From the IMG/VR virus record IMGVR_UViG_3300045988_136447, positions 2,554-66,553 of that record: a stretch of 64,000 bases of DNA. One strand, given 5' to 3'. This stretch comes from a virus. The notes under the pieces were generated by a model. That model was not told the origin of the DNA. It worked only from the letters and a program-made list of their open reading frames with translations, and made no database searches. Shown here one piece after another: positions 1 to 60,080 of this stretch. Made by a program: the position numbers and the translations under genes. Within the stretch, counting starts at the first letter, position 1, and each line of letters begins with the position of its first letter.

Positions 1-162
1 ATGAAGCATGAGAAAGCAAGTAATTAATGGGATGAGGTCGTTCACCGAAATTGATGATAAAATCAAAATTCATTCTCGTTATTGGAGGCATATTAGAATT
101 ATCGGTGTAACTTACTTTGGGGGGTCGTATTCCATCGAAATTGAAGTAGGGGAGCCCATAAA

Positions 163-252
163 ATGAAAACCGTTGGACACTGGTTAAAATATTCAATCGC
201 GCCGTTGGCTTTTTGGGCGGCGGTAATCGCAGCCGCAATCGTTACAGAATAA
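163..252 (+). CDS. tiny hydrophobic peptide (29 aa, MKTVGHWLKYSIAPLAFWAAVIAAAIVTE), single predicted TM helix
   Basis: ATG with GGGGAG upstream; below the 60-aa ORF-track cutoff; paralogue follows immediately. Confidence 0.35.
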   Translation: MKTVGHWLKYSIAPLAFWAAVIAAAIVTE

Positions 253-262
253 AGGATTAGCG

Positions 263-346
263 ATGAAAACCATCTTGTACTGGCTTAAATATGCCGCCAT
301 TCCGATTGCGTTTTGGGTTGCTGTAATCATTTGTGTAATTTGGTAA
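263..346 (+). CDS. tiny hydrophobic peptide (27 aa, MKTILYWLKYAAIPIAFWVAVIICVIW), tandem paralogue of 163..252
   Basis: AGGA RBS 6 nt upstream of ATG; shares MKT..WLKY..P.AFW.AVI pattern with the preceding peptide. Confidence 0.35.
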   Translation: MKTILYWLKYAAIPIAFWVAVIICVIW

Positions 347-367
347 TCAAACATAAGGAAACAAGCA

Positions 368-1027
368 ATGAAATTTAATATTGATGTCAAGAAAAATGAA
401 GTTGTAAACAAGTACGAAGCTGAACTTGCCGAACTCAAAGAAACTGAAACGGTGCTTAAGGGGCTCCCCGATGTGTTTGAGGATTTCGAATTCTTTTTCT
501 ATTCCCCTAGGAAGATGCAGAAGAATGTGATGGGAGTTGTACATTTTTATTGTGATGATGTCAATGAGATTATCGATACCCTGAATAAGGTGCCGGATTT
601 GCTCCCAATTTGCCTTGTAAACGACGGTTGCACATCGGCATATCCGCGCTGCTGCGTGGATATGGATAAGTACAGTAAATACAATTCAAATAATCTCTAT
701 TGTAAAAAATTGAAAGTTCCATATACGCTTGCGGCAGAAGGCTACACCCGCCAAACACTTCCTAGTGTTATCATTAGATGTTTTTACAATATTAAAAATT
801 ATGGGATTGTGGCTGTATGGATATCCGTAAAGAGTAAAGAGTTAGAATCATTCGGTGTTTACTTTGATGCAACATATCGCACATTTAAAGGCGATATTCT
901 TGAAAGTTCTATCAGATTCAATTATCAGTTTACTACTTTCAGAGTAAAAGTATTGTTTCCGAACGTTGTTAAGTTTGAGGGTTACAATTCTTCCGGTACT
1001 CATCTGTTTTATTCGGAGGTTGAATAA
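368..1027 (+). CDS. hypothetical protein
   Basis: 219-aa ORF, AAGGAA RBS, normal composition. Confidence 0.5.
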   Translation: MKFNIDVKKNEVVNKYEAELAELKETETVLKGLPDVFEDFEFFFYSPRKMQKNVMGVVHFYCDDVNEIIDTLNKVPDLLPICLVNDGCTSAYPRCCVDMDKYSKYNSNNLYCKKLKVPYTLAAEGYTRQTLPSVIIRCFYNIKNYGIVAVWISVKSKELESFGVYFDATYRTFKGDILESSIRFNYQFTTFRVKVLFPNVVKFEGYNSSGTHLFYSEVE

Positions 1028-1029
1028 AC

Positions 1030-1218
1030 ATGAGTAAAACGATGCGAAAATGCAATAAGTACCGTTATTGCTATGTTATTCAGGTGAAGAGCGATGGTGT
1101 ATGGCAAGATTGCATGTATCATAGCGATAGAAAATTTATGTACTCGGTGTATAATGGACTAAAATATAAAAGTACGTGTACAGATATACGCATCATACAG
1201 CGGAGGATTTTTAAATGA
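1030..1218 (+). CDS. hypothetical small protein
   Basis: 62-aa ORF tightly packed between neighbours (ATGA overlap with next gene). Confidence 0.3.
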   Translation: MSKTMRKCNKYRYCYVIQVKSDGVWQDCMYHSDRKFMYSVYNGLKYKSTCTDIRIIQRRIFK

Positions 1219-1502
1219 CAGTCTATGAGTTGAAAACTTTACCCATCGATACGATTGTCAAGCTCCATAATATGGCTGGAGGTAATCGCATATATTGTAT
1301 GGATGACGACGAAGATTTTAACCGGGTTGATGATATCGTAACAGAACATCTACGGGTAAAACGTAATTCGGCATTATGGGAATTTGATTCCGCTATGCCA
1401 TACGTTGTAATCGAGCATGGGGATGTAATGAGTTACAACGAAAAAGCGATAAGAGACTATATAGACTACGCCCGAATTATCGAATATGTGCTGTATTCGT
1501 AA
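1215..1502 (+). CDS. hypothetical protein
   Basis: 95-aa ORF, translationally coupled to upstream ORF. Confidence 0.4.
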   Translation: MTVYELKTLPIDTIVKLHNMAGGNRIYCMDDDEDFNRVDDIVTEHLRVKRNSALWEFDSAMPYVVIEHGDVMSYNEKAIRDYIDYARIIEYVLYS

Positions 1503-1609
1503 AATAGGGCAGAAAGCCGCTTCTGAGACGACTTAGTACCTCCCCGTATGGTTTACCTGGTTACTTGCTAAGTCGTCCCATAAGGCTAAACTAAAGGTGT
1601 TTAACGGCT

Positions 1610-1990
1610 ATGACAAATGAACAGTTACAGAACAGTATAAACGCGGTCAAGAATGTAGCGGCGTTTACGGCACTAATGCGAAGTTCTGCAATCGATGAAC
1701 AGATTAAATTATCTGAATACCTTTGCGCTAAAATATTCATCAAGTCTCACACTCCGCGCAATCCAATAGATGATAGTACAGTATTGTATCATCCCATCGA
1801 AGAAGAGATTGTGAAAGCGATTGCAAGCGGTATAGACGTCGATGACTTTGTAGCACAGTTTGTAAGTATGGATATGCGATCGTCGGCATCTATGCTTCGC
1901 AGACGTTATCACAAGATCGCGCATCTACTCTCGATTTATCAGGCATATAGTAAACCACCAATGCAAATCAATTTAGACGGTAAAATTTAG
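1610..1990 (+). CDS. hypothetical protein
   Basis: 126-aa ORF; convergent with the minus-strand gene 1987..2547. Confidence 0.45.
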   Translation: MTNEQLQNSINAVKNVAAFTALMRSSAIDEQIKLSEYLCAKIFIKSHTPRNPIDDSTVLYHPIEEEIVKAIASGIDVDDFVAQFVSMDMRSSASMLRRRYHKIAHLLSIYQAYSKPPMQINLDGKI

Positions 1991-2547
1991 TCATGTGCAT
2001 CGGCATCTATAATCACATCTTTTGGTTTTTCCTGCATGTTGAAAACCACCGTGAGCTTTCCTCCGGTATGTGCATCGGCATTTGCGTCTCCGATATTGGC
2101 AACTTTTACAAGCGTATTGATTGCGTTAACCACATCGGCAGGTTTGTTTTCTTCCTGATTTATAATGTTTTCGAGGCGTTTTGTGACACCTATAATCGTC
2201 GGCTTGTTGATTTCCCATTCTGCTGCTCTGAGAAATTTAATCCGTTCTCTTATCCTTTGTTTCATCATCATGCGGCGCATATTGTTGATGTCGATGTGAC
2301 GGATTCCGGTGATTGGCGTCATGTACTCTCGGTATGCTGTATAATACTCTTCCGTGGTATGTGCATCGGCATCTATAATCCAATTAAGGAAATCTTCAAC
2401 ACGTTTATCCGCAATTGGGATTGCGGGATCGGCATCCTTGTCGTCAAGGCAGGCAGGGAGGCAGTCAAGTGCATCGGCATTTGTATCGATTACTTTTTCA
2501 CCTGTATTTTCTCTGCGTTCAATTTGATTTTTAAGTTTAAAAGCCAT
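1987..2547 (-). CDS. acidic protein with repeated DADAH(T) motif (IIDADAHD, DANADAHTGG, IIDADAHTTEEY, DKDADPAIPIAD)
   Basis: 186 aa, AAAGGAG RBS 7 nt upstream on minus strand; normal composition, whereas the opposite-strand ORF is Cys/Phe junk; the underlying DNA carries a repeated TGCATCGGCAT motif. Confidence 0.5.
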   Translation of the reverse strand: MAFKLKNQIERRENTGEKVIDTNADALDCLPACLDDKDADPAIPIADKRVEDFLNWIIDADAHTTEEYYTAYREYMTPITGIRHIDINNMRRMMMKQRIRERIKFLRAAEWEINKPTIIGVTKRLENIINQEENKPADVVNAINTLVKVANIGDANADAHTGGKLTVVFNMQEKPKDVIIDADAHD

Positions 2548-2628
2548 CTGGAATCTCCTTTTTGTTTCAATATACCATGATACAGTAAAAATTACAAATA
2601 AAAGTTAAAAATTAATGCGCAATAGGGC

Positions 2629-2657
2629 TTGAAACTGTGACGCGTGAATGCTACATT
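2629..2657 (+). promoter_or_regulatory. sigma70-like promoter (TTGAAA-17-TACATT)
   Basis: gggcTTGAAActgtgacgcgtgaatgcTACATT. Confidence 0.45.
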
Positions 2658-2691
2658 AGTTAAAACCGGCGCAATAGACCTAGGAGTAACC

Positions 2692-2979
2692 ATGCAGACT
2701 GTGTATGAAGTCATCGGCGTCCTTGACGCGCACACATGTGTAATCGTCGGCATCTTCACTGACAGGATTGCAATGTGTGATAAGTTGCAGGAACAATTTT
2801 CGAAATGTTATTTGAAGTCAAACGGCAAGATGATCGATATTATCCCTGTAAGCGTCGGCATCTGTATGCGTAATAGATTCTGTAAACTGTACAGTAAGGA
2901 ATCAGGAAAAGAGTTGTACCGAATTTACGCGATAACGTTAAACAAAGTGAATCCTGAGTTGCATGAAAGTTTTAAGTAA
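2692..2979 (+). CDS. hypothetical protein (contains LDAHT motif)
   Basis: Start moved to ATG 2692 (AGGAG RBS), because the upstream part of the 2644 ORF overlaps a sigma70-like promoter. Confidence 0.4.
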   Translation: MQTVYEVIGVLDAHTCVIVGIFTDRIAMCDKLQEQFSKCYLKSNGKMIDIIPVSVGICMRNRFCKLYSKESGKELYRIYAITLNKVNPELHESFK

Positions 2980-4486
2980 AAACGATTATTTATACTATAA
3001 AAGAGATGGTAAGCATTATCGGGTTCCGGCTTCCGATAAAAGCATAAATGCTTTATTGCGCAGGAATTATGACTGTTCCGATGTTCTTACTTTAGGTGGC
3101 AGATTGCGCGTCCCGCTGTATCCATATCAGTATCAGGCGCTTTTACAGGCTAAGAATCACAATTGGAATATTTTAGACGCGGATAGTATGGGATTGGGGA
3201 AGACCCCAACGGCGCTGGGGTGCATCGTTGCCTCGAATGCAAGGAAAGTGCTTATCGTGTGTCCAGCCGCGATTAAGTATCAGTGGAAACGGTATATTGA
3301 AAACTGGGTAACGAAGCCCGGAATCATGTATGTGTGCGAAGGGCAGAAGTTTGAATATGGTGACTGCCTGAGTGTGAAACACGCCAACTACGTAATCATA
3401 AACTATAACATATATGATTATTGGATAGACCTGTTTTGTAAATTGAAGTGGGATATGGTTGTGTACGATGAAGCACATCGGATCAAGAAGGTGAGTATAC
3501 CATCGGCACCTGTAAGGTGCTCTGCCGCTGCTGATATGCTTGTGCCGCACGTTAAATCGTGTATATGCTTAAGCGGCACCCCCTTGACGGATCGCACCGC
3601 CGACATATGGCATATTGTGAAACTTGTGAATCCAAACTTGTTTCGATCATACTTTCTGTTCCAGCAGCGGTATTGCGGGGGAGCATCCGGCGCGTTTTCC
3701 AGCGAATCGAGAAGCGCCAATACGATAGAGCTGCATAATAAGCTGATCGATAGCGGCGTCATGATTCGCAGAACGAAAAAAGATGTGTACAAAGAGATAC
3801 CGAGAGTTGATATCGACGTAGTTCCGTTTAATGTTCGTTCCGCTGCACTGGATACGCTGGAAAGGGAGGCCCGGCATCAGACATTGTGGATGAAGAAACA
3901 GACCGGAAAACAACGCGGGGCCGCTATGTTTAAAGTTCGGCAGTCTTTTGAGAAATACTTACAGGAGGCGATACGATTAAAATTACCGTATATTGTAGAG
4001 TGGCTTAAAGATTTCATGAATGAAACCGATGAAAAGATTGTGATAGGCTGTATACATAAAGAACTGTGCGGAAATGCGCTGTATCGTGAATTTGAGAGGT
4101 CTGCTGTAATCATCAATGGGGATGCGTCGGCAAAACAAAAAGACAAACTTCTTACCGAGTTTAAAACCAACAAACAAAAAAGGATGCTGATATGTAACAT
4201 ACAATCTATGAAAGAAGGGGTGGACGGCCTTCAAAACGTGTGCAGCCATATGGCGATATGCGAACTGCCGTGGTCTCCCGCGGACATCGATCAGCTTATC
4301 GCCCGTCTAGATCGGAACGGGCAGAAAGAGCGTGTGAATGTTTCGTTCCTTGTGGTGTATGACAGCATCGACGAAATGCTTGTCCGTACTTTGGATAGAA
4401 AAAAGAAGATAACAACGGAAGTTCTTGACGGCAGAGCTCCGCATAGAAAAGAATTATTGGTAAACCTATTAACCGGAGGATGTTGA
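2963..4486 (+). CDS. SNF2-family (SF2) DNA helicase/translocase
   Basis: Motif I SMGLGKT, motif II DEAHRIKK, motif III LSGTPL, motif VI ARLDRNGQ. Confidence 0.85.
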   Translation: MKVLSKNDYLYYKRDGKHYRVPASDKSINALLRRNYDCSDVLTLGGRLRVPLYPYQYQALLQAKNHNWNILDADSMGLGKTPTALGCIVASNARKVLIVCPAAIKYQWKRYIENWVTKPGIMYVCEGQKFEYGDCLSVKHANYVIINYNIYDYWIDLFCKLKWDMVVYDEAHRIKKVSIPSAPVRCSAAADMLVPHVKSCICLSGTPLTDRTADIWHIVKLVNPNLFRSYFLFQQRYCGGASGAFSSESRSANTIELHNKLIDSGVMIRRTKKDVYKEIPRVDIDVVPFNVRSAALDTLEREARHQTLWMKKQTGKQRGAAMFKVRQSFEKYLQEAIRLKLPYIVEWLKDFMNETDEKIVIGCIHKELCGNALYREFERSAVIINGDASAKQKDKLLTEFKTNKQKRMLICNIQSMKEGVDGLQNVCSHMAICELPWSPADIDQLIARLDRNGQKERVNVSFLVVYDSIDEMLVRTLDRKKKITTEVLDGRAPHRKELLVNLLTGGC

Positions 4487-6573: not shown

Positions 6574-7836
6574 ATGCAGGGATCGGAAATATGGGCTGAA
6601 AGTTGGGGCGTACTGCCGGAAGTTCCTTTGTTTGAAGACAAAGTTACCGGAATCAAATATGATTTCAACTACGGATTTCGATGCCATTCCCCGAGCGACA
6701 GCGACGATATGTTTAACATTCATATCGAAACATCCGCAGGTGACGTATTGTGCGACATACCACTTGCCGCCGGATGCAAGTGGAGCTTTCCTTTTAAGTA
6801 TTACATGGACTACACGGTTACGATAACCGGGAAGCATGGTGTATTCCGGGAGACGCTTGATCTTACTGATAAAACAGTTATGATTATGTGCAGCGTAAGG
6901 ACGCTTGGAGATTCTATTGCATGGTTGTCCGCCGTTCCTGCCTTTGAAAGAAAGCACAAATGTAAGTGTGTGTGCGTCGTGAATAACGATATCTATGAAC
7001 TGCTTAAGGATTCAGAGCAGATCAAAGTAATTAAACTTGAGGATAAATGCAATTACACTCCATATGCTACATACTACTTGGGTTTGTTTTTCGATGAATC
7101 ATACAGTAAATTTTGGCAGCCGTATGATTTCAGGCTTGACGGCCTTCATGAACAGGCCAAAAACATTTTAGGAATCCGCAACGAAGAAACCCGGCACCTT
7201 GAGCTTAGAGACGCAGGCACGAATCCACTGGCCGGTAAAAAGTATGTGTGTATCTCATACTCCGGCAGTAAGGCGAACAAGTTTTGGAATAATCCGATCG
7301 GATGGAAGAAGGTGGTCAAGTACTTGCATTCATTGCAGTATGCAGTTGTGTGCATCGACAAATCTGATGTATGCGGAATTGCCCCCCTATACTACTACAT
7401 GCCGAACGGCGTGATTGACATGACCGGAGACCTTTCTTTGCAGTCAAGAGTTGACGTGCTTAAGGGCGCTGAGATGTTCATCGGCATGGCAAGCGGGCTT
7501 TCGTGGCTTGCATGGTGCAGCGGAGTGCCGGTCGTTATGATTAGCGGTTTCAGTCTGCCGTATGCAGAATTTTACACAAAGTATCGTGTAATCAATACAA
7601 TGTGTGAGTGCATCGGATGCTGGAATGACACGAGAATTCAGTTTTCTCGCCATGATTACATGTGGTGTCCCCGTATCGATAACGAGCTGCAAGCGCTCAA
7701 AGTCTCGGACGCTGAGAGCGAAGCAGAATACCGTCGCCTTTCGCAAAAACGCTTTATGTGTACACAAACCATTACACATAATATGGTTATACAGAAAATC
7801 AATGAAGTTTTAGAGGATCAGCACAGGGAAAATTAA
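6574..7836 (+). CDS. protein with C-terminal GT9 (heptosyltransferase-like) glycosyltransferase fold
   Basis: C-terminal half matches the GT9 pattern: KYVCISYSGSKANKFW...GDLSLQSRVDVLKGAEMFIGMASGLSWLAWCSGVPVVMI (compare G.LSL.EL.ALI..A.L.IGNDSGPMHLAAAL). Confidence 0.5.
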   Translation: MQGSEIWAESWGVLPEVPLFEDKVTGIKYDFNYGFRCHSPSDSDDMFNIHIETSAGDVLCDIPLAAGCKWSFPFKYYMDYTVTITGKHGVFRETLDLTDKTVMIMCSVRTLGDSIAWLSAVPAFERKHKCKCVCVVNNDIYELLKDSEQIKVIKLEDKCNYTPYATYYLGLFFDESYSKFWQPYDFRLDGLHEQAKNILGIRNEETRHLELRDAGTNPLAGKKYVCISYSGSKANKFWNNPIGWKKVVKYLHSLQYAVVCIDKSDVCGIAPLYYYMPNGVIDMTGDLSLQSRVDVLKGAEMFIGMASGLSWLAWCSGVPVVMISGFSLPYAEFYTKYRVINTMCECIGCWNDTRIQFSRHDYMWCPRIDNELQALKVSDAESEAEYRRLSQKRFMCTQTITHNMVIQKINEVLEDQHREN

Positions 7837-28111: not shown

Positions 28112-28221
28112 ATAACCACCTCAAAGTATTACATCTAACGAGTGAATTCCCGTTGACTGGTGATACATTATTGCAATCGTAATTGTAATGCAAAATAAAA
28201 AGAACATGACTATTGAAAATA

Positions 28222-28623
28222 TCAATAGTCATGTTTAAAGGAATTTAAAATCGAGAGAATGTCTCGAAAAGCTGTTTTATCGAATTTTAGAGACTTGTCC
28301 GGGTACACCTCATGGCGCAACCACAGCCTCCTGCGGCAATGATTGCATACTTGATTTGCGTTCATCTCCTCTTTCGGGAAGTATTTACCGCAACCACCTC
28401 TACAACGTACTCCCCTGTTACACTCCTCTTTATGTTTGGCTTGTTTAAAGATGTAATCATGTAAGCATACCAGTGTAGCGTAATCGTAATGGTAAATCGG
28501 TCTACCAAACGCGGTCTTAGTTGTGAACACCGGATCGATCTCAAGTTTCGAAAGCAGCCACCTAAGCGTTTTATCCGGTAATCCGGTTATTTTCATAAGC
28601 TGTTTTCGGGTATAAGTTTCCAT
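28222..28623 (-). CDS. HTH plus Cys4 zinc-finger putative regulator
   Basis: KQLMKITGLPDKTLRWL HTH; CRGGCGKYF...CNHCRRR. Confidence 0.5.
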   Translation of the reverse strand: METYTRKQLMKITGLPDKTLRWLLSKLEIDPVFTTKTAFGRPIYHYDYATLVCLHDYIFKQAKHKEECNRGVRCRGGCGKYFPKEEMNANQVCNHCRRRLWLRHEVYPDKSLKFDKTAFRDILSILNSFKHDY

Positions 28624-28643: not shown

Positions 28644-28690
28644 GTCACTGTGATGTCACTGTGATGTCACTGTGATGTCACAGTGACATT
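28644..28690. promoter_or_regulatory. operator-like array: GTCACTGTGAT x3 tandem followed by palindrome ATGTCACAGTGACAT
   Basis: Seen directly in the sequence, immediately upstream of the minus-strand HTH/Zn regulator gene. Confidence 0.5.
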
Positions 28691-29057
28691 AATTTCGACT
28701 CCTAGACAGGGTTTGCCGCGCGTTGTCGTAGGCGCGTTTGGCATTATCTGCGGTGGTTTGCATTTCTTTCATCTGTGACGTGAACTCGGAAAGTTCTCTT
28801 TGAGTAGACGCAAGATCACGATTCAAGATCAAAACCAAGATAAATGCGATTAGGGCTAAAGTACTTGTCAAGAGGTGGAAGGCGCTGCTTGCGATAAACA
28901 AAATCATGATAACCGTTTTGTTTGAAACCACTTGTTTATCAACGCTGTGCTGGATGTGCTCTTTGAATGCTTCCCAATCATTCATCTGTTCGATGTCAGA
29001 CTTCAATGGATTATTTTGGAGCATACTCATTTCCTTATTTAGTAGTTGTGCGGTCAC
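28689..29057 (-). CDS. membrane protein with central TM and C-terminal coiled coil (possible lysis or spanin-like)
   Basis: VIMILFIASSAFHLLTSTLALIAFILVLIL hydrophobic segment. Confidence 0.4.
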   Translation of the reverse strand: MTAQLLNKEMSMLQNNPLKSDIEQMNDWEAFKEHIQHSVDKQVVSNKTVIMILFIASSAFHLLTSTLALIAFILVLILNRDLASTQRELSEFTSQMKEMQTTADNAKRAYDNARQTLSRSRN

Positions 29058-29844
29058 ATACAGAGTGAATCCACTTAATTACTTCCTGTGTATCAAACGG
29101 TTTAATGCCGTCTGCGTCAATGTACGCAATCGGCCGTTTCCGATAATAGGTAAACGGAAATTTGTTGTGCAAGTGCAAAACCCTTCCCGGGTACATTGCC
29201 GCGGCCATACAGAGGGTTCCGGAGTTTACCCCGATGAATGCTTGGCATTGCTGTAAAACGCCTGTAAACGCTGTTACAGACGGTTCTACACCGCGCGTAG
29301 AGCAGTTTACAAAGTCATACGGTTCATTCTTGACATTATACTGCATGTGCCGGAAATACACTTCGATCGGAACTTTACCGCAGGATTGAATAGCCTGCCA
29401 CACTTGTTTAGCAACGTGGTACGGGATATTATAATTTGAGTTGCTGTTGCACATAAAAGATACCCCGATAAACGGAGACTGTACTTTAGGCGGTTGCCAT
29501 GTGAAATCCAAACTCAAATCAAAATCAATTCCAAGCTCATGAATGCAGCAGCACTCCGGTTTGGAATACTTTTGAAATCTATAATCAGTTGGAGTTTCGT
29601 GAAATACGATTACAAATACATAGTCATAGTATGCCTGCTCTTTTGGCTGCGGAAAGATATCAGTTCTTCCTTCAGCCCATTCAACTGCAATTTCACTCTG
29701 TGGGTACTGATTTTGAAGCCGCAAAAGGAGCGGCATAAACATAACATCATCCCCAAGACCATGAGGAAAGTAAAGAAGGGCTTTGCATCCTTCTTTAAGA
29801 TACTCCGCTACTTTCTTTTTACTAAAATCTCTAATTATAATCAT
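29035..29844 (-). CDS. GT9-like (heptosyltransferase-fold) glycosyltransferase, short form
   Basis: LYFPHGLGDDVMFMPLLLRLQNQYP (N-terminal GT9 pattern); AFIGVNSGTLCMAAAMYPGRVLHL (C-terminal GT9 pattern). Confidence 0.5.
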   Translation of the reverse strand: MIIIRDFSKKKVAEYLKEGCKALLYFPHGLGDDVMFMPLLLRLQNQYPQSEIAVEWAEGRTDIFPQPKEQAYYDYVFVIVFHETPTDYRFQKYSKPECCCIHELGIDFDLSLDFTWQPPKVQSPFIGVSFMCNSNSNYNIPYHVAKQVWQAIQSCGKVPIEVYFRHMQYNVKNEPYDFVNCSTRGVEPSVTAFTGVLQQCQAFIGVNSGTLCMAAAMYPGRVLHLHNKFPFTYYRKRPIAYIDADGIKPFDTQEVIKWIHSVCDRTTTK

Positions 29845-29846
29845 AA

Positions 29847-30578
29847 TCAGTGTTGTTTAATAAACAAATGAAATTGCATACACGAAATTTTACCTAAATG
29901 GATAATCGAAAATCCACATTTTTCTGCAATACATCTCAGCGTATTTTTTGAATACAGCATTACGTGTCCAACCCTCGGACACGTATAGTAATTCGTCTTC
30001 ACCTCCATCATATCATCAGTCACATCAGTACTGACAAGTACTGCACCTCCAAGATAAAGCATATTACTGAACTTTTTAAATGTCTCAACAATATTGTAAT
30101 CGTGTTCAATCACTTCTGTACAGGTTATCAGCTCATATTTATCGCGAAGTGGCTCTGCGTTTACAGAGTAGTATGGATCATAGCCATACACTCTTGAAAA
30201 TCCATCTTTACGCAATCTATCGATCCAAAATCCATTACCGCATCCGTAGTCCAAAATGTAAGCACCGGAGCATAGATAATAGTTGAACATTGTATGCATT
30301 AAATTATACATACAGGTAGGTCTATTTCCATGTTCATTGATAATATCAGAATCATACTTTGCGTATGCCTCATTGTAAACATGTTCTTTAAACTCTGAAG
30401 TGCCCCAATTACGTTGAGTTTCTGAGAAATAAAGACCACACTCACTACAATGCCTGTAATCGATAGTAGGGCTGAAGTCAGACCCATCAAGGTTGATTTT
30501 CCCATTCCTGAAAGGAACTGTAAACACAAAATCGGAGCTGTATCCGCAGACTGGACACAAGGTGGTATTTGTAGTCAT
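29847..30578 (-). CDS. class I SAM-dependent methyltransferase with N-terminal zinc ribbon
   Basis: CPVCGYS...CSECG; motif I ILDYGCGNGFW. Confidence 0.65.
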   Translation of the reverse strand: MTTNTTLCPVCGYSSDFVFTVPFRNGKINLDGSDFSPTIDYRHCSECGLYFSETQRNWGTSEFKEHVYNEAYAKYDSDIINEHGNRPTCMYNLMHTMFNYYLCSGAYILDYGCGNGFWIDRLRKDGFSRVYGYDPYYSVNAEPLRDKYELITCTEVIEHDYNIVETFKKFSNMLYLGGAVLVSTDVTDDMMEVKTNYYTCPRVGHVMLYSKNTLRCIAEKCGFSIIHLGKISCMQFHLFIKQH

Positions 30579-30805
30579 TGTTTACTATCTAATTTGGTTT
30601 CTATTCGATTTAAGGATGCCCTGAATTCCATACACTTATCTTTACAGTCTGATCGTAGCATGTAATCTTCTCTGGTATCATGCAACAAATCAGCAATCTC
30701 TTTTACTGAGGCAGTAAGTTCTTTAAGATTTGGACGGTAGACAAACGCAGCAATCCCCCATACCGCGCCGACAATTCCAACAATATAAGAGATCGATTCA
30801 AGCAT
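30575..30805 (-). CDS. small N-terminal TM protein (holin-like candidate)
   Basis: ISYIVGIVGAVWGIAAFVY hydrophobic segment; 76 aa. Confidence 0.4.
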   Translation of the reverse strand: MLESISYIVGIVGAVWGIAAFVYRPNLKELTASVKEIADLLHDTREDYMLRSDCKDKCMEFRASLNRIETKLDSKQ

Positions 30806-30912
30806 TAAGCGCGTTCCTCCGTTTTAATTTTTAATATAGCGCGCTTATTCGTAAATGCAAGTAATTTTATAAAATTAGCATGGGAAACCTATAAGGTTTC
30901 CCATTTATTTTA

Positions 30913-31359
30913 CTATTCTACGGAAGGTGTAGGATTGGAAATTTGGCTGTTATCTGTTGTATTCTTGAGCAAATCAACTCGATACTGCCAATAGAGTTTC
31001 ATGACTTCGATATAGGAGGCTGCGGCTTCCGGGGAATTTTCGGAAAGGTCGACCAGATAGCCGGTGATCTGCGGGCCGACGTCGCGGCGCAGGCGTTTCA
31101 CGCCTTTGATGTTTCCGGTACTGTCGTCGACCGAAACGCCGTTGTCGGCATCGATTTCGACATCCCAGCTTGCGTTCTCCCGGCTGACGTCGATGACGTT
31201 CAGGCCGTCCGTGTAGCTGGCATTAGCCGTTGCGTTCTGCGGATCAATCCCGAGATTGACACGGGTCCCGAGCGTGAAGGCTCCTGTGTTGTGGCTGCAT
31301 CCCGGCAGCAGCAGCGCGGCGGCGATGACGGTGATGGTGATAAGAATTGTCTGTTTCAT
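30913..31359 (-). CDS. lipoprotein (signal peptide plus LLPGC lipobox), GC-rich
   Basis: MKQTILITITVIAAALLLPGCSH; lies in GC-rich island next to fibre genes. Confidence 0.55.
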   Translation of the reverse strand: MKQTILITITVIAAALLLPGCSHNTGAFTLGTRVNLGIDPQNATANASYTDGLNVIDVSRENASWDVEIDADNGVSVDDSTGNIKGVKRLRRDVGPQITGYLVDLSENSPEAAASYIEVMKLYWQYRVDLLKNTTDNSQISNPTPSVE

Positions 31360-49803: not shown

Positions 49804-51453
49804 TTACAGATTTTCCCCCTTACTGATTGAAGCTGTTCTACTTTTAGCATAATCGCTGCGACTGCGGATGCCGTCAGGGGTGCTCCCACTTGCGTCAGTC
49901 TTGTGTTTAGCCTTACTGTCAAACGTCATTGGGGCGACTGCCTGTGTATTGGCATCAATTTCTTTCTTGATCTTTTCATACACCTCATCAGGCACGTGAC
50001 GGATTGTGTCAAGGGTATCGAGGGCGGTGATCTTGATCTGTTTCTGATACTCATTTCCAGCGTCAAGATTAGCAAACTCAACAATTGCCGCAATCACAGA
50101 TTTCAATTCGTGAATATCATAATTTGTGTTGTACAGGACTTTCGGAATCTTGATCGAGGGATCAAACAGGTTCATGAATTTCCACACTTTGTTCTCAAGT
50201 TCCTGCAAGTGGGAAGCGATCCCCGAAAGCTGTGCGGCAAGACTGATGTTGTCTGCGGACTTACTTTCCGCAGAAGAGCGCTGTGTCGTATCAACACCAA
50301 TAAGAAATCCGTACATCTTAATCAGTGTATTGATAAGACGGTCGTCATGCTGGATGATGCTTTCGATATTGGCCCCATTCGGTTGAATGTAACGAGAAAT
50401 GCCCCGTTCTTCCGCATCTTCCGGGATATGCTTGGTACGGGACAGCACCAAACTCGCTTCCTGAGCAATGATCTTTTCAACAGCCGGGTCGTTGATGTCC
50501 AGTGTGGGATTCTCCTGTTGGAGCTTCATCCTGATACGAACGATCGTAGATTGAAGGGTAGAGGGGAGAACCAGTTGCCCATAAGTTTGTTTAAGGATAT
50601 TGGTAAGCAACTCAGATTCCCCCTTAAGTACGGAATCGTGAATTGTAAGAATATCATCGATTTCAGGTACATTGAAATATCGATTAAACATGATACTGGA
50701 ATACGGGATGGCAGGAACGACACCAAGGGTATTCACATGCGGATCGCTGGCGATGATAAGATCAACTGGCTCCGGATCGTCTCCATTGTCAATGATGTAA
50801 TCAAAAGTCTGCCAGTATTCTTTTGTGTAAAGTGTTCTCCTGAGTTTTACAACTGGCTTCCTTTTCGGATTGCTTTTTTCAGTGATAGTCTCTTGCCGGA
50901 TCACCCAACTCAAGCTCCCGTCAGAATCGTAGTCCCAGTCAGGGATATCCATAGGAGCAAGGGCCTCCGCATACGGTCTGATTTTGTCTCGTTGCTTCGT
51001 CTTGAGGTCAACAAGATTATAGTTGAGTGCTGGATTATCGATGAAAACCCAAGCAAGACCATAGATTGTATGATAGTCAAATACTTCGCGCATGACGCTG
51101 TTAACGGATTTACTTTTCCGGTCGAAGTCGTCCGCGATATCCGCATTCACATTTTCTCTGCGCGGCGGTTTTGAGAAAATGTAATCCCCAAATTTACGAG
51201 TGCTGTATTTAATCAAATTGATGTTATATGAGTATTGTTTCCGATCGTTAAACTCTTCATCCGTTTCCGACGGGTGCTTCTGCAATGTATTCTCGATATA
51301 CGCGCGTCCACCATTGTACGCGCGCGTAGCCTTACACCACAAAGGAAGAAGTTTACAATAGTACGGATGTTTTCGCGTGAAAACGTAAAAATTAGGGTCA
51401 TTCGCACTGACAGACGGCACTAGCGAATACAAAGATTCAAGTTCCATATTCAT
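49804..51453 (-). CDS. portal protein
   Basis: 549 aa between terminase large subunit and scaffold. Confidence 0.6.
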   Translation of the reverse strand: MNMELESLYSLVPSVSANDPNFYVFTRKHPYYCKLLPLWCKATRAYNGGRAYIENTLQKHPSETDEEFNDRKQYSYNINLIKYSTRKFGDYIFSKPPRRENVNADIADDFDRKSKSVNSVMREVFDYHTIYGLAWVFIDNPALNYNLVDLKTKQRDKIRPYAEALAPMDIPDWDYDSDGSLSWVIRQETITEKSNPKRKPVVKLRRTLYTKEYWQTFDYIIDNGDDPEPVDLIIASDPHVNTLGVVPAIPYSSIMFNRYFNVPEIDDILTIHDSVLKGESELLTNILKQTYGQLVLPSTLQSTIVRIRMKLQQENPTLDINDPAVEKIIAQEASLVLSRTKHIPEDAEERGISRYIQPNGANIESIIQHDDRLINTLIKMYGFLIGVDTTQRSSAESKSADNISLAAQLSGIASHLQELENKVWKFMNLFDPSIKIPKVLYNTNYDIHELKSVIAAIVEFANLDAGNEYQKQIKITALDTLDTIRHVPDEVYEKIKKEIDANTQAVAPMTFDSKAKHKTDASGSTPDGIRSRSDYAKSRTASISKGENL

Positions 51454-51464
51454 AATTTTCTCCT

Positions 51465-52760
51465 TTAAAACACAAATGCATTCATTTTATCCACACCATA
51501 AGAAATATACCGCACGCAGTCGATAACGTCATCATCTATTTTGATGGGAGATTCCTTATTCGACACTTCGCTGCTGCTTTCATGCCAAGAATAGTTTTGA
51601 AACTCCGTGATGATGCTTTCACATGTGTTAAAAACTTGAAGTCTTGGTTTTCCGGTCTTACGATTGATCATTAATCTCTGGGCGATAGAATTAATCCCAT
51701 CAGCCACCGACTTATGAGCGGGTTTCGTATAGATACCCTCTGATTGTAAGTATGCACGATCTGCCGCAGCATGGTCAGCCCATCTTACCATGTAAATATC
51801 TTTATTCTTTTTCTGATAGTCGTTGATCTCGTTTGCGGCTTCACGGATTGTAATTCCAGATTTTTTAAAATCATGGTAAAAGTACAGAATATCGTTCACA
51901 AAGTCATGCGCTGCGCATACAAATGCAAACGGGTGTTTGTACCCAAAGTCGATCGCTGAAAACTTAGCCCAATACGGGGGTATAGTAAAAGGCTCTACAA
52001 CGTGTATGCGCTCATCAAATTCTTTGAAAATCTGCCCCTCACCCCCACACCACCTGCCATGCAACATTCTTTCTCTTTGAATTTCAGGGAGCGCGTCAAG
52101 TGTATCAATGTATCCCGGAGGTAGATTCTCTAGGTTGTCATAGGCTGTCCAGTGCAACAGAGCGTGTTTATCTGCATCTTTGAGCTTCTTAAACGGCTTG
52201 GAAGCAGGATCAAGTAGCTGAACTCCCCAAATGTACAGCCAGTGCCTTTCAGACTGCGGATTGCAGTCGAGAATCATCTTGTTTACCGCTACAAATGTTC
52301 CGGTGATATCTTTCACTTTCTGTGCAAGACGGGTTTTCAGCATGCCGATAACTTGATAAGTCATCTGCGTAGCCTCGTTACAGAAAATCGTAATGTACTC
52401 AGTACCCAAACATTTCTGCGCTCGATCTTCATCATCAAGACCACCCAATACGATTACAGAACCGTTACTGAATTGAACTTTCAACTCAGATTTTACTAGC
52501 GTGTATTCGCTATCAGGGATGTACAGATTCAGATACTTGGGCAAGGAATCATCCCAAATTGAATTACGTGCGTCAACCAAATTTTTGCGCACAATGAGTT
52601 GCCGACTTCCGGGAAACTGAAACGCTCTTCCAATCATATATTCCATAATAAGGAAGGTTTTACCGGAGCGTGATCCTCCGGTAAACAAGATCGTTTCCTT
52701 ATCCGGGTTTTGAAGCAGCTCAAGCCCCGTTTTCTGTTTAGCTGTCAGCTTTAGCGGCAT
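51465..52760 (-). CDS. terminase large subunit
   Basis: Walker A TGGSRSGKT near N-terminus; size 431 aa; position. Confidence 0.8.
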   Translation of the reverse strand: MPLKLTAKQKTGLELLQNPDKETILFTGGSRSGKTFLIMEYMIGRAFQFPGSRQLIVRKNLVDARNSIWDDSLPKYLNLYIPDSEYTLVKSELKVQFSNGSVIVLGGLDDEDRAQKCLGTEYITIFCNEATQMTYQVIGMLKTRLAQKVKDITGTFVAVNKMILDCNPQSERHWLYIWGVQLLDPASKPFKKLKDADKHALLHWTAYDNLENLPPGYIDTLDALPEIQRERMLHGRWCGGEGQIFKEFDERIHVVEPFTIPPYWAKFSAIDFGYKHPFAFVCAAHDFVNDILYFYHDFKKSGITIREAANEINDYQKKNKDIYMVRWADHAAADRAYLQSEGIYTKPAHKSVADGINSIAQRLMINRKTGKPRLQVFNTCESIITEFQNYSWHESSSEVSNKESPIKIDDDVIDCVRYISYGVDKMNAFVF

Positions 52761-53484: not shown

Positions 53485-53688
53485 TTATACTCTCCTGTTG
53501 CTCAATTCGGCATCAAGTCCGGCATTCAAGAAACACATCTGAGCATACCAGTTGGTTTTCACGCAGTAATTCCGGCAAACGTCACATGACCTGTTTAGTC
53601 TTTTACAGTATAGGTCATCACTGTTGATTCTGATTCCGTACATGCAGTTTTCACATGCCACATCGCGTATGACTGTCTTGGTTTTCAT
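53485..53688 (-). CDS. Cys-rich zinc-finger protein, first gene of late operon
   Basis: CENC...CKRLNRSCDVCRNYC. Confidence 0.4.
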   Translation of the reverse strand: MKTKTVIRDVACENCMYGIRINSDDLYCKRLNRSCDVCRNYCVKTNWYAQMCFLNAGLDAELSNRRV

Positions 53689-53712
53689 ATATCTCCTTTA
53701 TGGTGTTACTTT

Positions 53713-53740
53713 AATATACTTAGTTATGTTAATTTGTCAA
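53713..53740 (-). promoter_or_regulatory. sigma70-like promoter for late minus-strand operon (TTGACA-16-TATATT)
   Basis: Reverse complement reads TTGACAaattaacataactaagTATATT. Confidence 0.6.
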
Positions 53741-53782
53741 CCACTGTAAAAATAAAAAGCAAAAATAAAGTAAAAACCGCAA

Positions 53783-53811
53783 TTGACATTTTTCAGCTGC
53801 CATGCTATATT
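53783..53811 (+). promoter_or_regulatory. sigma70-like promoter (TTGACA-17-TATATT) upstream of the tRNA genes
   Basis: aaTTGACAtttttcagctgccatgcTATATTag. Confidence 0.6.
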
Positions 53812-54114: not shown

Positions 54115-54189
54115 GCCGATTTAGCTCAGTGGTAGAGCAGCAGTTTTGTAAACTGCCTGTCATCGGTTCAAATCCGATAATCGGCTCCA
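54115..54189 (+). tRNA. tRNA-Thr (anticodon UGU)
   Basis: Cloverleaf folded by hand: acceptor GCCGATT/AATCGGC, D arm GCTC/GAGC, anticodon stem GCAGT/ACTGC with loop TTTGTAA, T arm ATCGG-TTCAAAT-CCGAT, 3' CCA encoded. Confidence 0.8.
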
Positions 54190-54194
54190 AATAT

Positions 54195-54268
54195 GGACGT
54201 ATGGTGTAACGGCAGCACAGTTGATTTTGGTTCAACTAGCGCAGGCTCGAATCCTGCTGCGTCTACCA
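54195..54268 (+). tRNA. tRNA-Gln (anticodon UUG)
   Basis: Acceptor GGACGTA/TGCGTCT (two G-U pairs), anticodon stem GTTGA/TCAAC with loop TTTTGGT, T arm GCAGG-CTCGAAT-CCTGC, CCA encoded. Confidence 0.7.
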
Positions 54269-56484: not shown

Positions 56485-56613
56485 ATGAGATTCGAAATCA
56501 CAATGCGCAACTATTTCTGCATCACGGAAGAAGATATTCTCGACGCAATCGTTAAATGTATTGGTGTGGATGAGGACGACATTGAAGTAACTCAGATCGA
56601 TACGTGTGAATAA
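56485..56613 (+). CDS. small acidic protein (42 aa)
   Basis: GAGGTGAAAG RBS. Confidence 0.3.
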   Translation: MRFEITMRNYFCITEEDILDAIVKCIGVDEDDIEVTQIDTCE

Positions 56614-56614: not shown

Positions 56615-56704
56615 ATGAATGAAATACTCCGATTAATAGGGATCATGGCGATATTGACTGCGTTTATATGGTTAGCCATAGGGGACAATTGGGATGAATA
56701 CTGA
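56615..56704 (+). CDS. tiny TM peptide (29 aa)
   Basis: MNEILRLIGIMAILTAFIWLAIGDNWDEY. Confidence 0.3.
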   Translation: MNEILRLIGIMAILTAFIWLAIGDNWDEY

Positions 56705-60068: not shown

Positions 60069-60080
60069 TTATTATGATGT

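What the first reader, a model, noticed from the sequence alone, without database searches (positions are those of the whole stretch)
163..346. Tandem pairs of tiny single-TM peptide genes at several loci
At 163..252 and 263..346 two adjacent 27- to 29-aa ORFs encode near-identical hydrophobic peptides, MKT..WLKY..P.AFW.AVI. A second unrelated tandem pair of 37-aa TM peptides, MID.E.E...GITIL, sits at 60334..60447 and 60470..60583. Single tiny TM peptides also occur at 56615..56704 and 57098..57184. All are below standard ORF-calling thresholds. Recurrent duplicated micro-membrane-proteins are reminiscent of type I toxin-like peptides, membrane-depolarising peptides, or small regulators of host membrane complexes.
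Basis: seen in the sequence. Interest (0 to 1): 0.55.

Follow-up and report, generated by a model that had tools for sequence, protein, structure and literature searches.

The report
Conserved tiny membrane-peptide genes in phage
Six 27- to 37-codon genes in the early and replication operons of an uncultured human-gut phage are real, conserved genes for single-helix membrane peptides; genes of this kind are common in phages, and what these ones do is still unknown.

Summary
All six ORFs are at the stated coordinates. A1/A2 and B1/B2 are true paralogue pairs (alignment z = 12.8 and 7.7). A1/A2 are 56% identical, not "near-identical".

Related gut-phage contigs support coding:
- A2 is intact in every clade contig covering the locus, always 21 nt before the same 219-aa gene.
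- C and D co-occur in 8/8 viral contigs, and B1+B2 in 5/5 contexts.
- Substitutions are mostly synonymous or conservative (D: 8 synonymous, 1 non-synonymous, P = 6.5e-5).
- Frames survive a 3-nt insertion and in-frame fusions.
- A seventh hydrophobic ORF, used as a control, is broken by a stop codon in 8 of 9 relatives.

All six sit inside co-directional operons, with ATGA stop/start overlaps or short gaps. Four have Shine-Dalgarno sites.

The window's A1-A2 adjacency is derived: relatives carry from a short remnant to several small genes between them. A1 is dispensable (decayed in some relatives, fused in one).

There are no hits in Pfam, NCBIfam, PHROGs, PADLOC, PDB or 50,697 phage records. 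Type I toxin-antitoxin architecture is not met for A, C and D and is unsupported for B.

Verdict: real, unannotated, lineage-restricted membrane micro-proteins. This is a new member of a known kind, of modest interest.

The parts
1..11 (+). 3' end (last codons and TGA at 9..11) of a roughly 324-aa gene cut by the window start. Its stop overlaps the start of the 52-aa ORF (ATGA).
   Evidence: The window start aligns with L064 2811..; the L064 324-aa gene ends at 2821 and the next gene starts at 2818. The homologue in L036 is 76% identical in protein and is followed directly by A1.
8..166 (+). 52-aa ORF upstream of A1. Its TGA stop (164..166) overlaps the A1 ATG (163..165).
   Evidence: It is found fused in frame to the A1 helix in P0004 / L064.
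163..252 (+). A1: 29-aa single-helix peptide, MKTVGHWLKYSIAPLAFWAAVIAAAIVTE. Variable paralogue of A2.
   Evidence: ORF; SD -8.1 kcal/mol. Intact in L005, L009, L089 and L101 and in the second phage type L036/L088. Window vs L036: 7 synonymous, 6 non-synonymous, pS 0.35, pN 0.09, P = 0.016. Decayed or frameshifted in L001-L004 and L007.
263..346 (+). A2: 27-aa single-helix peptide, MKTILYWLKYAAIPIAFWVAVIICVIW. The conserved (core) member of family A.
   Evidence: Intact, same length and always 21 nt upstream of the 219-aa gene in all 9 related viral loci, and present in further gut metagenome contigs. Window vs L003: pS 0.36, pN 0.09, P = 0.022. SD AAGGA, -5.8 kcal/mol.
368..1027 (+). 219-aa gene of unknown function, the constant downstream neighbour of A2.
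   Evidence: No Pfam or PHROG family. Only relatives of 82% identity or more among 5.8 billion clusters. The AlphaFold model was unusable (pLDDT 36).
56485..56613 (+). 42-aa ORF whose stop lies 1 nt before the C start codon.
56615..56704 (+). C: 29-aa single-helix peptide, MNEILRLIGIMAILTAFIWLAIGDNWDEY. Its 3' end overlaps the start of the 135-aa ORF by 11 nt.
   Evidence: Present in 8/8 related viral contigs together with D; the only variants are R6Q, N25E and D27N. Too few substitutions for a selection test (2 synonymous, 2 non-synonymous, P = 0.17).
56694..57101 (+). 135-aa charged ORF between C and D. It is replaced by a much shorter intervening stretch in three relatives (C-start to D-start 204 nt instead of 483).
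   Evidence: No Pfam, PHROG or PADLOC hit.
57098..57184 (+). D: 28-aa single-helix peptide, MNWPQATVDIATGLFAVLVLYIVMVKTN. Its ATG overlaps the TGA of the 135-aa ORF (ATGA).
   Evidence: Window vs L014: 8 synonymous, 1 non-synonymous, pS 0.41, pN 0.016, P = 6.5e-5. Intact in 7 of 8 viral contigs and truncated in contig 156706. SD -5.6 kcal/mol.
60308..60335 (+). Strong sigma-70-like promoter match (TTGACA-16-TAAAAT, 11/12). Its -10 element overlaps the B1 ATG.
   Evidence: One of only 4 sites scoring 11/12 or better in the 64 kb (expected 1.2 +/- 0.9); two of the others form the divergent pair at 53713..53811. Retained in L114 and L116, TTGATA in L042, deleted in L115. Function not shown.
60334..60447 (+). 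B1: 37-aa single-helix peptide, MIDRDEREAFILVGITILISVIIIVSICYGCACHVGL (a 49-aa form is possible from the ATG at 60298).
   Evidence: Present with B2 in 5/5 contexts. The frame survives a +ATT codon insertion (L116) and an in-frame N-terminal replacement (L115). A +1 T in L114 puts the 60298 ATG out of frame. Core codon columns: 4 synonymous-only and 6 amino-acid-changing (five conservative hydrophobic replacements plus stop-to-Leu in L116). No SD at 60334 (+2.7 kcal/mol).
60470..60583 (+). B2: 37-aa single-helix peptide with an acidic N-tail, MIDDEHEDVNFYGITILFTFFIVVALVGWLLCRMDIS. Last gene of the + strand operon.
   Evidence: SD AAAGAGG, -7.0 kcal/mol. Five sequences: 5 synonymous-only against 2 amino-acid-changing codon columns; variable positions 1/1/5 by codon position. 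One of only 2 representatives found among 1.84 billion proteins.
60598..60720 (.). Two strong hairpins (60598..60632 and 60644..60697) followed by a T-rich tail. Terminator region between the convergent + and - strand operons.
   Evidence: MFE -56.6 kcal/mol against -30.6 +/- 3.8 for shuffles, z = -6.8. DNA homology with relatives that lack B resumes at about 60570.

Best explanation
The six ORFs are genuine, translated micro-genes of an uncultured human-gut phage that carries its own replication module. Each encodes one hydrophobic helix that inserts into the host cytoplasmic membrane.

They are made from the polycistronic early and replication-region mRNAs, by their own Shine-Dalgarno sites and/or by coupling to the upstream cistron. 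They fall into three unrelated groups that each occur as a two-peptide set:
- the A1/A2 paralogues;
- the B1/B2 paralogues;
- C and D, which bracket one ORF.

A2, C and D are present in every clade contig examined. B1+B2 and A1 are gained, lost, fused or decayed among close relatives.

My inferred mechanism is that they are accessory membrane-acting factors. The helices of a set pair in the membrane and either modulate a host membrane function (exclusion of competing phages, a transporter or an envelope complex) or hold neighbouring soluble phage proteins at the membrane. They are not autonomous toxin-antitoxin modules or lysis genes.

Shown: ORF reality, conservation, coding-type substitution pattern, hydrophobic single-helix character, operon embedding, and lack of membership in any described family. 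Inferred: membrane insertion, topology (by the positive-inside rule: A1, A2 and C N-in; B2 and D N-out), pairing, and any effect on the host.
For: Coding:
- A2 is intact and length-invariant in 9/9 related viral loci.
- D shows 8 synonymous to 1 non-synonymous change, P = 6.5e-5.
- A1, A2, B1 and B2 each show an excess of synonymous changes, P = 0.016-0.028.
- B2's variable positions fall 1/1/5 by codon position.
- Amino-acid changes are hydrophobic-for-hydrophobic.
- The frame is kept through a codon insertion (L116) and through in-frame fusions (P0004 = 52-aa ORF::A1; L115 = 13 codons of the 134-aa gene::B1).
- Negative control: the hydrophobic ORF 53642..53749 is interrupted by a stop in 8 of 9 relatives.

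Translation context:
- ATGA overlaps at 52-aa/A1 and at 135-aa/D. C starts 1 nt after the upstream stop.
- SD energies are in the range of long genes for A1, A2, B2 and D.
- A1 also overlaps the stop of the 323-aa gene in a different phage type, L036.

Membrane character: hydropathy equals the KdpF control and the hydrophobic moment is low.

Sets: A1/A2 z = 12.8 and B1/B2 z = 7.7. B1+B2 co-occur in 5/5 contexts and C+D in 8/8.

Accessory nature: B is absent from the close relatives L015, L017 and L019, which carry other cargo at the same operon end. A1 is decayed in L001-L004 and L007.

Location: among SNF2 helicase, primase, dUTPase and a weak Lar-like match (below the Pfam cut-off), not in the structural block.
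Against: - There is no direct evidence of translation, membrane insertion or any phenotype.
- All relatives are close (82% protein identity or more for the 219-aa neighbour). Substitution counts per peptide are therefore small: 4-13 events per comparison, and C is not significant (P = 0.17). The pairwise tests share lineages.
- B1 lacks an SD, and a strong promoter-like site would start transcription inside it. Its core shows 6 amino-acid-changing against 4 synonymous codon columns.
- The natural fusions come from single contigs and could be defective genomes or assembly errors.
- Pairing and partner-tethering rest only on co-occurrence, adjacency and my reading of small-xxx-small motifs in the sequences.
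- The host is known only as a hint: a 70% identical terminase in an Acutalibacteraceae MAG contig.
Confidence: 0.6

Rival explanations
1. Type I toxin-like or abortive, membrane-depolarising peptides. Each small hydrophobic peptide would be a toxin whose synthesis is held in check by an antisense RNA, or would be expressed to kill or arrest the host.
For: Size, a single hydrophobic helix and charged tails resemble Hok, Fst, TisB and BsrG-type toxins (my knowledge). The B locus has some stand-alone features: an 11/12 promoter-like site just upstream, a 10/12 promoter-like site on the opposite strand inside B2 (60498..60470), a terminator-like hairpin on the - strand at 60270..60252, a strong terminator downstream, and presence/absence variation among close relatives.
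Against: A1, A2, C and D are embedded in co-directional operons with ATGA overlaps or 1-21 nt gaps. No antisense promoter or terminator match lies next to them. At B, promoter-like matches overall are not enriched over shuffles (12 against 9.0 +/- 4.0). The antisense -35 degrades to TTTACG in L042 (sequence). The putative 219-nt antisense RNA folds no better than shuffles (z = -0.43). L115 has lost the sense promoter yet keeps both genes. There is no hit to any NCBIfam or Pfam toxin family.
Confidence: 0.1
2. The reading frames are translated or conserved for reasons other than their products. Examples: upstream ORFs whose translation merely couples ribosomes to the next gene (A2 to the 219-aa gene, C to the 135-aa ORF), or DNA or RNA elements that happen to be open.
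For: There is tight coupling to neighbours. A2 is always exactly 21 nt upstream of the 219-aa gene, and in the same frame. All relatives are close, so conservation alone is weak. The B1 region could serve as promoter and 5' leader for B2.
Against: A pure coupling uORF has no reason to keep a hydrophobic helix, invariant W/K/Y/P/F positions across paralogues that are only 56% identical, or an excess of synonymous changes. Paralogues and in-frame fusions conserve the peptide rather than the position. Rfam finds nothing but two tRNAs in the window. The control ORF in a conserved non-coding region does acquire stops.
Confidence: 0.1
3. Lysis-timing components (holin, antiholin or pinholin-like proteins, or lysis inhibitors).
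For: They are small phage membrane proteins, and two-component pairs are reminiscent of holin/antiholin systems (my knowledge).
Against: At 27-37 aa with one helix they are shorter than typical holins (my knowledge). They lie in the + strand early and replication operons with helicase, primase and dUTPase, far from the - strand late block. The late block has its own membrane-protein candidates at 28689..29057, 30575..30805 and 30913..31359. B and A1 are dispensable among close relatives. No endolysin was identified next to any of them.
Confidence: 0.07
4. Secreted or released amphipathic peptides (leaderless or two-peptide bacteriocins, phenol-soluble-modulin-like peptides) acting on other cells.
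For: They form tandem pairs of very small peptides below ORF-calling thresholds, as in enterocin L50A/B or the psm-alpha genes (my knowledge).
Against: Hydrophobic moments are 0.11-0.14 with mean hydropathy like a transmembrane helix, unlike the PSM-alpha3 and delta-toxin controls (0.56-0.59). Net charge is negative or near zero for B1, B2, C and D. No immunity or export genes were recognised nearby. There are no family hits.
Confidence: 0.03

Closest known systems
Small-gene families predicted in phage genomes (Fremin et al., Cell Rep 2022, listed as reference 32 of PMC11364881; Sberro et al. 2019 for the human microbiome)
   Same: They are ORFs of fewer than 50 codons, found by conservation, in phage genomes from metagenomes. 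[quoted passage not shown] They have no functional annotation.
   Different: I could not read the Fremin catalogue (not held), so I do not know whether these exact families are in it. In the collections I could search they are almost absent: 4 clusters for A, 1 for C/D and 2 representatives for B.
Bacterial small regulatory membrane proteins (KdpF, AcrZ, MgrB, MgtS, PmrR, CydX; my knowledge)
   Same: They are 25-50 residues with one transmembrane helix and act by binding larger membrane complexes. The hydropathy profile of the six peptides matches the KdpF control.
   Different: There is no sequence similarity to any of them (Pfam, NCBIfam and PDB searches). These peptides are phage-encoded, occur as paralogous or co-occurring pairs, and have no identified partner complex.
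Type I toxin peptides (Hok/Sok, Fst/RNAII, TisB/IstR, BsrG/SR4, TxpA/RatA; my knowledge)
   Same: Similar size, a single hydrophobic helix, frequent location on phages and prophages, and duplication into paralogues.
   Different: There is no antisense RNA gene, no autonomous locus for A, C and D, no family hit, and toxicity is untested.
Phage morons (promoter-gene-terminator cargo inserted between conserved genes, as described for HK97/HK022-type phages; my knowledge)
   Same: The B locus lies in a window-specific insert at an operon end. It has a strong promoter-like site before it and strong terminators after it. Close relatives carry different cargo at the same place.
   Different: The promoter is unverified and would start transcription inside B1. 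L115 keeps the genes without it. No integrase was found among the window ORFs scanned, so prophage-state expression, the usual rationale for morons, may not apply.
YidC-type small coat proteins such as Pf3 coat (44 aa; acidic N-tail out, basic C-tail in; my knowledge)
   Same: B2 (and D) have an acidic or neutral N-tail, one helix and a basic residue after the helix, which suggests N-out insertion without a signal peptide.
   Different: This is an analogy of topology only. They are not virion genes by position, and there is no sequence similarity.

Membership tests
Type I toxin-antitoxin system | Small hydrophobic single-helix peptide of about 20-60 aa | tested here: met
   27-37 aa; KD17 2.2-3.2; uncharged runs of 16-29 residues.
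Type I toxin-antitoxin system | Antisense (cis- or divergently encoded) small RNA antitoxin overlapping the toxin mRNA | tested here: not met
   No opposite-strand promoter or terminator matches next to A or next to C and D. At B there is only a 10/12 match, which degrades in L042. The putative antisense RNA folds at z = -0.43. Rfam finds only tRNAs. Consensus scans cannot exclude an unconventional RNA.
Type I toxin-antitoxin system | Autonomous locus with its own promoter and terminator, not part of a translationally coupled operon | tested here: not met
   ATGA overlaps and 1-21 nt gaps to co-directional neighbours for A1, A2, C and D. B is inconclusive: promoter-like site 60308..60335 and terminators 60598..60720.
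Type I toxin-antitoxin system | Growth arrest or membrane damage on expression | not testable with these tools
   Needs inducible expression.
Type I toxin-antitoxin system | Sequence membership in a described toxin family (Hok, Fst/Ldr, TxpA/BsrG, Ibs, ShoB and others) | tested here: not met
   No NCBIfam or Pfam hit at E <= 10 apart from noise.
Holin / antiholin | Located in a lysis cassette next to an endolysin and expressed late | tested here: not met
   The peptides lie in the + strand early and replication operons (helicase, primase, dUTPase). No endolysin domain was found in neighbours. Timing of expression was not tested.
Holin / antiholin | Membership in a PHROG or Pfam holin family | tested here: not met
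   No PHROG hit better than E = 0.1 and no Pfam hit.
Known small membrane regulators (KdpF, AcrZ, MgrB, CydX and others) | Sequence match to the family model or to a solved chain | tested here: not met
   Pfam, NCBIfam and PDB sequence searches were empty or noise.
Known small membrane regulators (KdpF, AcrZ, MgrB, CydX and others) | Physical association with a defined membrane complex | not testable with these tools
   Needs pull-down or two-hybrid experiments.
Amphipathic secreted peptides (PSM, delta-toxin, leaderless bacteriocins) | Amphipathic helix with a high hydrophobic moment, usually cationic | tested here: not met
   Hydrophobic moment 0.11-0.14 against 0.56-0.59 for controls. Net charges are +1, +2, -2, -5, -3 and 0 for A1, A2, B1, B2, C and D.
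Anti-phage defence system components (PADLOC) | Match to a defence-system protein model | tested here: not met
   No hit for any peptide at E <= 1. The 219-aa neighbour gives only a weak partial match to PDC-S26 (E = 2.9e-4, 18 bits).
Conserved phage small-gene family (operational: an ORF of fewer than 50 codons kept open under purifying selection in several genomes) | ORF intact in independent genomes | tested here: met
   A2 in 9/9 viral loci plus gut metagenome contigs. C and D in 8/8 (D truncated in one). B1+B2 in 5/5. A1 in two phage types.
Conserved phage small-gene family (operational: an ORF of fewer than 50 codons kept open under purifying selection in several genomes) | Excess of synonymous over non-synonymous change | tested here: met
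   D P = 6.5e-5; A1 0.016; A2 0.019-0.022; B1 0.022; B2 0.028; C not significant at 0.17. Counts are small and the genomes are related.

The most novel reading that the evidence does not exclude
The micro-peptides are detachable membrane anchors. Each set of helices would tether the soluble proteins encoded next to it to the host membrane: the 323-aa gene or the 52-aa ORF with A1, A2 with the 219-aa protein, and C and D with the ORF they bracket. Together they would build a membrane-bound early or replication complex.

The naturally occurring in-frame fusions (52-aa ORF::A1 in P0004/L064; the N-terminus of the 134-aa gene::B1 in L115) would then be 'Rosetta-stone' versions of the same arrangement. 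The linkage of A1 to the 323-aa gene in two otherwise different phages would reflect a two-gene functional unit.
Probability: 0.12. Interest if true: 0.55.

Novelty: new member of a known kind. Interest (0 to 1): 0.3.

Why it matters
Standard gene callers skip ORFs this short. A2, C and D are missing from the searched protein collections as free-standing genes and appear there only inside longer or fused ORF calls. This phage therefore carries at least six real membrane proteins that an automatic annotation would not show.

Small single-helix proteins are a recognised but functionally unexplored class in phages. Here there are three independent two-peptide sets, one of which (A1) travels with a partner gene across two phage types. 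These are compact, testable candidates for phage factors that act at the host membrane, such as superinfection exclusion, control of transport or envelope complexes, or anchoring of phage proteins. The result does not open a new category or settle an open question.

Tried and rejected
1. Near-identity search of window 1..3000 against 50,697 phage records found nothing. tblastn of A2 and of the 49-aa B1 form against the same collection found nothing; the low-complexity filter may mask such helices.

2. PHROGs, Pfam, NCBIfam and PADLOC scans of all peptides gave only noise. PDB sequence searches gave nothing.

I therefore used artificial concatenations, A1+A2 and C+D, as queries, and DNA patterns.

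4. The relaxed family-A DNA pattern in the metagenome collection returned 42 loci. Only 9 are true family members. The rest are unrelated longer ORFs, for example HWFKYCFRPIPFW in 112-aa ORFs.

5. The generic B pattern in viral contigs returned 23 loci, of which only L042 is real.

6. I first read L036/L088 as sharing only the 94 nt of A1 with this phage, that is, a mobile micro-gene. That reading was wrong. The window simply starts 8 nt before the end of the 324-aa gene, which L036 also shares (76% protein and 78% nt identity).

7. I first favoured the 49-aa form of B1 because the 60298 ATG has an SD-like site (-7.7 kcal/mol) and a gene caller used it (P0006). L114 carries a 1-nt insertion that puts that ATG out of frame, so the conserved ORF is the 37-aa form.

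8. AlphaFold2 of the 219-aa neighbour with its shallow 9-sequence alignment gave mean pLDDT 36. It was unusable, so no fold search was run.

9. The homologue search for the 219-aa protein found only relatives of 82% identity or more. It could not test whether the A2-219 linkage is ancient.

10. The Fremin et al. 2022 paper is not held.

11. Lipoprotein signal reading of A2 (VIIC): rejected by inspection, because cleavage would leave a 4-residue product.

12. Host: one genome scan gave only a 70% identical terminase in an Acutalibacteraceae MAG contig. This is a hint, not an assignment.
Full report
**What the window is.**
The 64-kb window (44.9% G+C) is most of the genome of an uncultured tailed phage.
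- It has a large terminase (51465..52760, PHROG E = 2e-35).
- Its portal (49804..51453) is only 24-28% identical to portals of isolated phages.
- Its replication module comprises an SNF2 helicase, a Toprim primase, a weak DnaB-like match (below the Pfam cut-off), family A polymerase split from a UDG/exonuclease protein, ligase, a clamp-loader-like ATPase, a 5'-3' exonuclease, dUTPase and a Dam-type methylase.
- No integrase was seen among the ORFs scanned.
- There is no near-identical record among 50,697 phage genomes.
- Close relatives are IMG/VR contigs of 59-70 kb and human-gut metagenome contigs.
- The only host hint is a 70% identical terminase on a contig of an Acutalibacteraceae MAG.
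- Genes run on the + strand from about 53.8 to 60.6 kb and from 1 to 26.4 kb, and mostly on the - strand from 26.4 to 53.5 kb and from 60.9 to 63.9 kb.

All six ORFs are at the stated coordinates.
- Each has an uncharged stretch of 16-29 residues with Kyte-Doolittle 17-residue maxima of 2.2-3.2 and low helical hydrophobic moments (0.11-0.14). These values equal those of my KdpF control and differ from the amphipathic PSM-alpha3 and delta-toxin controls (control sequences are from memory).
- A1/A2 and B1/B2 are real paralogue pairs: alignment scores are 12.8 and 7.7 standard deviations above composition-preserving shuffles, with 0 of 2000 shuffles as good. No other pairing stands out.
- A1 and A2 are 56% identical, not "near-identical". 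Eleven positions are invariant across ten family-A sequences (M1 K2 T3 W7 L8 K9 Y10 P14 F17 W18 I22).
- B1 and B2 are 39% identical.
- Only 9 of 253 ATG ORFs of 25-50 codons in all six frames are this hydrophobic, and six of those are these peptides.

**Family A (163..346).**
The gene chain reads as follows:

| Element | Junction to the next |
|---|---|
| End of a 324-aa gene, cut by the window start (TGA at 9..11) | ATGA overlap |
| 52-aa ORF 8..166 | ATGA overlap |
| A1 | 10 nt |
| A2 | 21 nt, including an AAGGAA Shine-Dalgarno site |
| 219-aa gene 368..1027 | |

A2 is the conserved member.
- It is intact, 27 codons long and in the same place in all nine related viral loci, and is also found in gut metagenome contigs.
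- Between the most divergent pair, pS is 0.36 and pN 0.09.
- Replacements are A/V/I/T/S exchanges within the helix.

A1 is variable.
- It is intact in L005, L009, L089 and L101.
- It is fused in frame to the 52-aa ORF in P0004/L064.
- It is reduced to an N-terminal remnant in L001-L004.
- It is truncated and frameshifted in L007.

The tandem adjacency is derived.
- Relatives carry from a 20-codon remnant (L005, L009) to several small genes between A1 and A2.
- The window sequence corresponds to a deletion between two copies of AATAAAGGA.

A1 also occurs in a different phage type (L036/L088, which has a T7-like terminase and a tyrosine integrase).
- There it directly follows a homologue of the 324-aa gene, again with an ATGA overlap.
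- Across that distance A1 shows pS 0.35 and pN 0.09.
- A1 is better conserved at the DNA level (84-93%) than its 323-aa neighbour (78%).

**C and D (56615..57184).**
- C starts 1 nt after the stop of a 42-aa ORF, and its end overlaps the start of a 135-aa ORF.
- The TGA of the 135-aa ORF overlaps the D start codon.
- C and D occur together in all eight viral contigs found with a D-specific pattern.
- The ORF between them is either about 135 aa or is replaced by a much shorter stretch.
- D is truncated in one contig (156706).
- D gives the cleanest selection signal: 8 synonymous to 1 non-synonymous difference, P = 6.5e-5.
- C has too few changes to test (P = 0.17).

**Family B (60334..60583).**
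B1 and B2 are the last two genes of the + strand operon. They lie just before two strong hairpins and a T-rich tail (z = -6.8).

They sit in an insert that the close relatives L015, L017 and L019 lack. Homology with those relatives resumes at about 60570, and other cargo occupies the site.

I found the pair in four other sequence contexts, always together: L042, L114, L115 and L116.
- B2 shows 5 synonymous-only against 2 amino-acid-changing codon columns.
- B1 changes are conservative.
- The B1 frame survives an added ATT codon (L116).
- The B1 frame also survives replacement of its N-terminus by the first 13 codons of the neighbouring 134-aa gene (L115).

B1 has no Shine-Dalgarno site.
- A strong promoter-like site lies at 60308..60335 (TTGACA-16-TAAAAT). 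It is one of only four 11/12 matches in the window, against 1.2 expected. Two of the others form the expected divergent pair at 53713..53811.
- Its -10 element overlaps the B1 ATG.
- If it is active, it would transcribe B2 but not a translatable B1. This is unresolved.

**Controls and family searches.**
- The hydrophobic ORF 53642..53749 lies in the conserved promoter region and is interrupted by a stop codon in 8 of 9 relatives. The conservation test therefore does discriminate.
- None of the peptides matches PHROGs, Pfam, NCBIfam, PADLOC or any PDB chain.
- Rfam finds only two tRNAs, at 54115..54268.
- In a 5.8-billion-cluster protein collection, family A is represented by four clusters. All are longer or fused ORF calls from this phage group.
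- C and D are represented there by one cluster.
- Family B has two representatives among 1.84 billion.

**Interpretation.**
The evidence supports real protein-coding micro-genes for single-pass membrane peptides. They are expressed as parts of early and replication-region operons by their own ribosome-binding sites (A1 -8.1, A2 -5.8, B2 -7.0, D -5.6 kcal/mol, against a long-gene median of -6.4) and/or by termination-reinitiation coupling.

By the positive-inside rule (inference), A1, A2 and C would be N-in, and B2 and D N-out.

Three features suggest accessory factors acting at the host membrane or anchoring neighbouring proteins there:
- their organisation as two-peptide sets;
- their linkage to particular neighbours;
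- the gain, loss and fusion seen among near-identical genomes.

That functional step is inference only.

The type I toxin reading fails its architectural criteria for A, C and D, and has no positive support for B. A lysis role is unlikely from position. An amphipathic secreted-peptide role is unlikely from the physico-chemical profile.

**Novelty and score.**
Small transmembrane ORFs are a recognised, abundant but uncharacterised class in phage and microbiome genomes (PMC11364881 and the works it cites). These are new, lineage-restricted members of that class.

I score interest at 0.3. The finding is solid and corrects an annotation blind spot, but a specialist would not be surprised, and no mechanism is established.

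Noticed in passing
window 62302..63541: A 1.2-kb stretch with no long ORF that is full of repeats: a perfect 17-nt tandem repeat x3.7 (ATAATTAGGATTTCCTG, 62547..62609); a 29-nt unit x3.2 (62663..62756, with a further copy at 62854); and a 19-nt motif AATAGCACAAA(T/A)CGCTCAT x4 (62781, 63332, 63446, 63524). It looks like an iteron, origin or regulatory region.
   Followed up: partly
window 63657..64000: A 181-nt tandem repeat (1.9 copies, 95% identical) running off the window end. It is also present in relatives, about 2.4 kb upstream of A1 there. If the genome is circular or permuted, the window therefore lacks roughly 2 kb, including most of the 324-aa gene.
   Followed up: partly
window 53713..53811: Two back-to-back 11/12 sigma-70-like promoter matches on opposite strands, between the late - strand block and the early + strand block. 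These are probably the real divergent promoters.
   Followed up: partly
window 53642..53749 (+): A hydrophobic 35-aa ORF (41 aa from a TTG start) overlapping that promoter region. It is interrupted by a stop codon in 8 of 9 relatives, so it is probably not a gene. I used it as a negative control.
   Followed up: yes
window 28121..28225 (-): Another 34-aa hydrophobic ORF (TTG start, MIFSIVMFFLFCITITIAIMYHQSTGIHSLDVIL) that fills the gap between two - strand genes.
   Followed up: no
window 344..370: The A2 TAA stop and the ATG of the 219-aa gene are in the same reading frame, 21 nt apart, with no indel in any relative. Read-through would give the 219-aa protein an N-terminal helix. In-frame spacing has a 1-in-3 prior, and there is no evidence of recoding.
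   Followed up: partly
L064 2818..3024 (P0004); L115 1338..1478; P0003: Natural in-frame fusions of the peptide helices to neighbouring ORFs: 52-aa ORF::A1; the first 13 codons of the 134-aa gene::B1; and a frameshifted upstream ORF running into A2. Each is known from a single contig or cluster.
   Followed up: partly
window 60883..61518 (-), repeat at 60911..60955: A 211-aa ORF with a C-terminal (GKED)x4 repeat encoded by a 12-nt tandem repeat. No family hit.
   Followed up: no
window 6574..7836 (+): A glycosyltransferase family 9 (heptosyltransferase-like) gene inside the replication operon (E = 2.3e-8). This is an unusual cargo gene for a phage whose only host hint is a Firmicute MAG.
   Followed up: no
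window 54115..54268 (+): Two adjacent tRNA genes, Thr(TGT) and Gln(TTG), at the start of the early operon.
   Followed up: yes
window 28689..31359 (-): Membrane-protein candidates in the late block: 122 aa with a central helix; 76 aa (30575..30805) with an N-terminal helix; and 148 aa (30913..31359) with a lipoprotein-like N-terminus ending LLLPGC. This may be the lysis region. There are no family hits.
   Followed up: no
window 59450..60570 compared with L015, L017 and L019: The operon end is a cargo-swap site. Relatives carry a different gene there (conserved motif HPKHYAGYPASIECIDITRHLNF..GNAVKYIWRAGKKGG, which I recognise from memory as DUF3310-like; not tested) or a 297-aa gene, instead of the 134-aa, 76-aa, B1 and B2 set.
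   Followed up: partly
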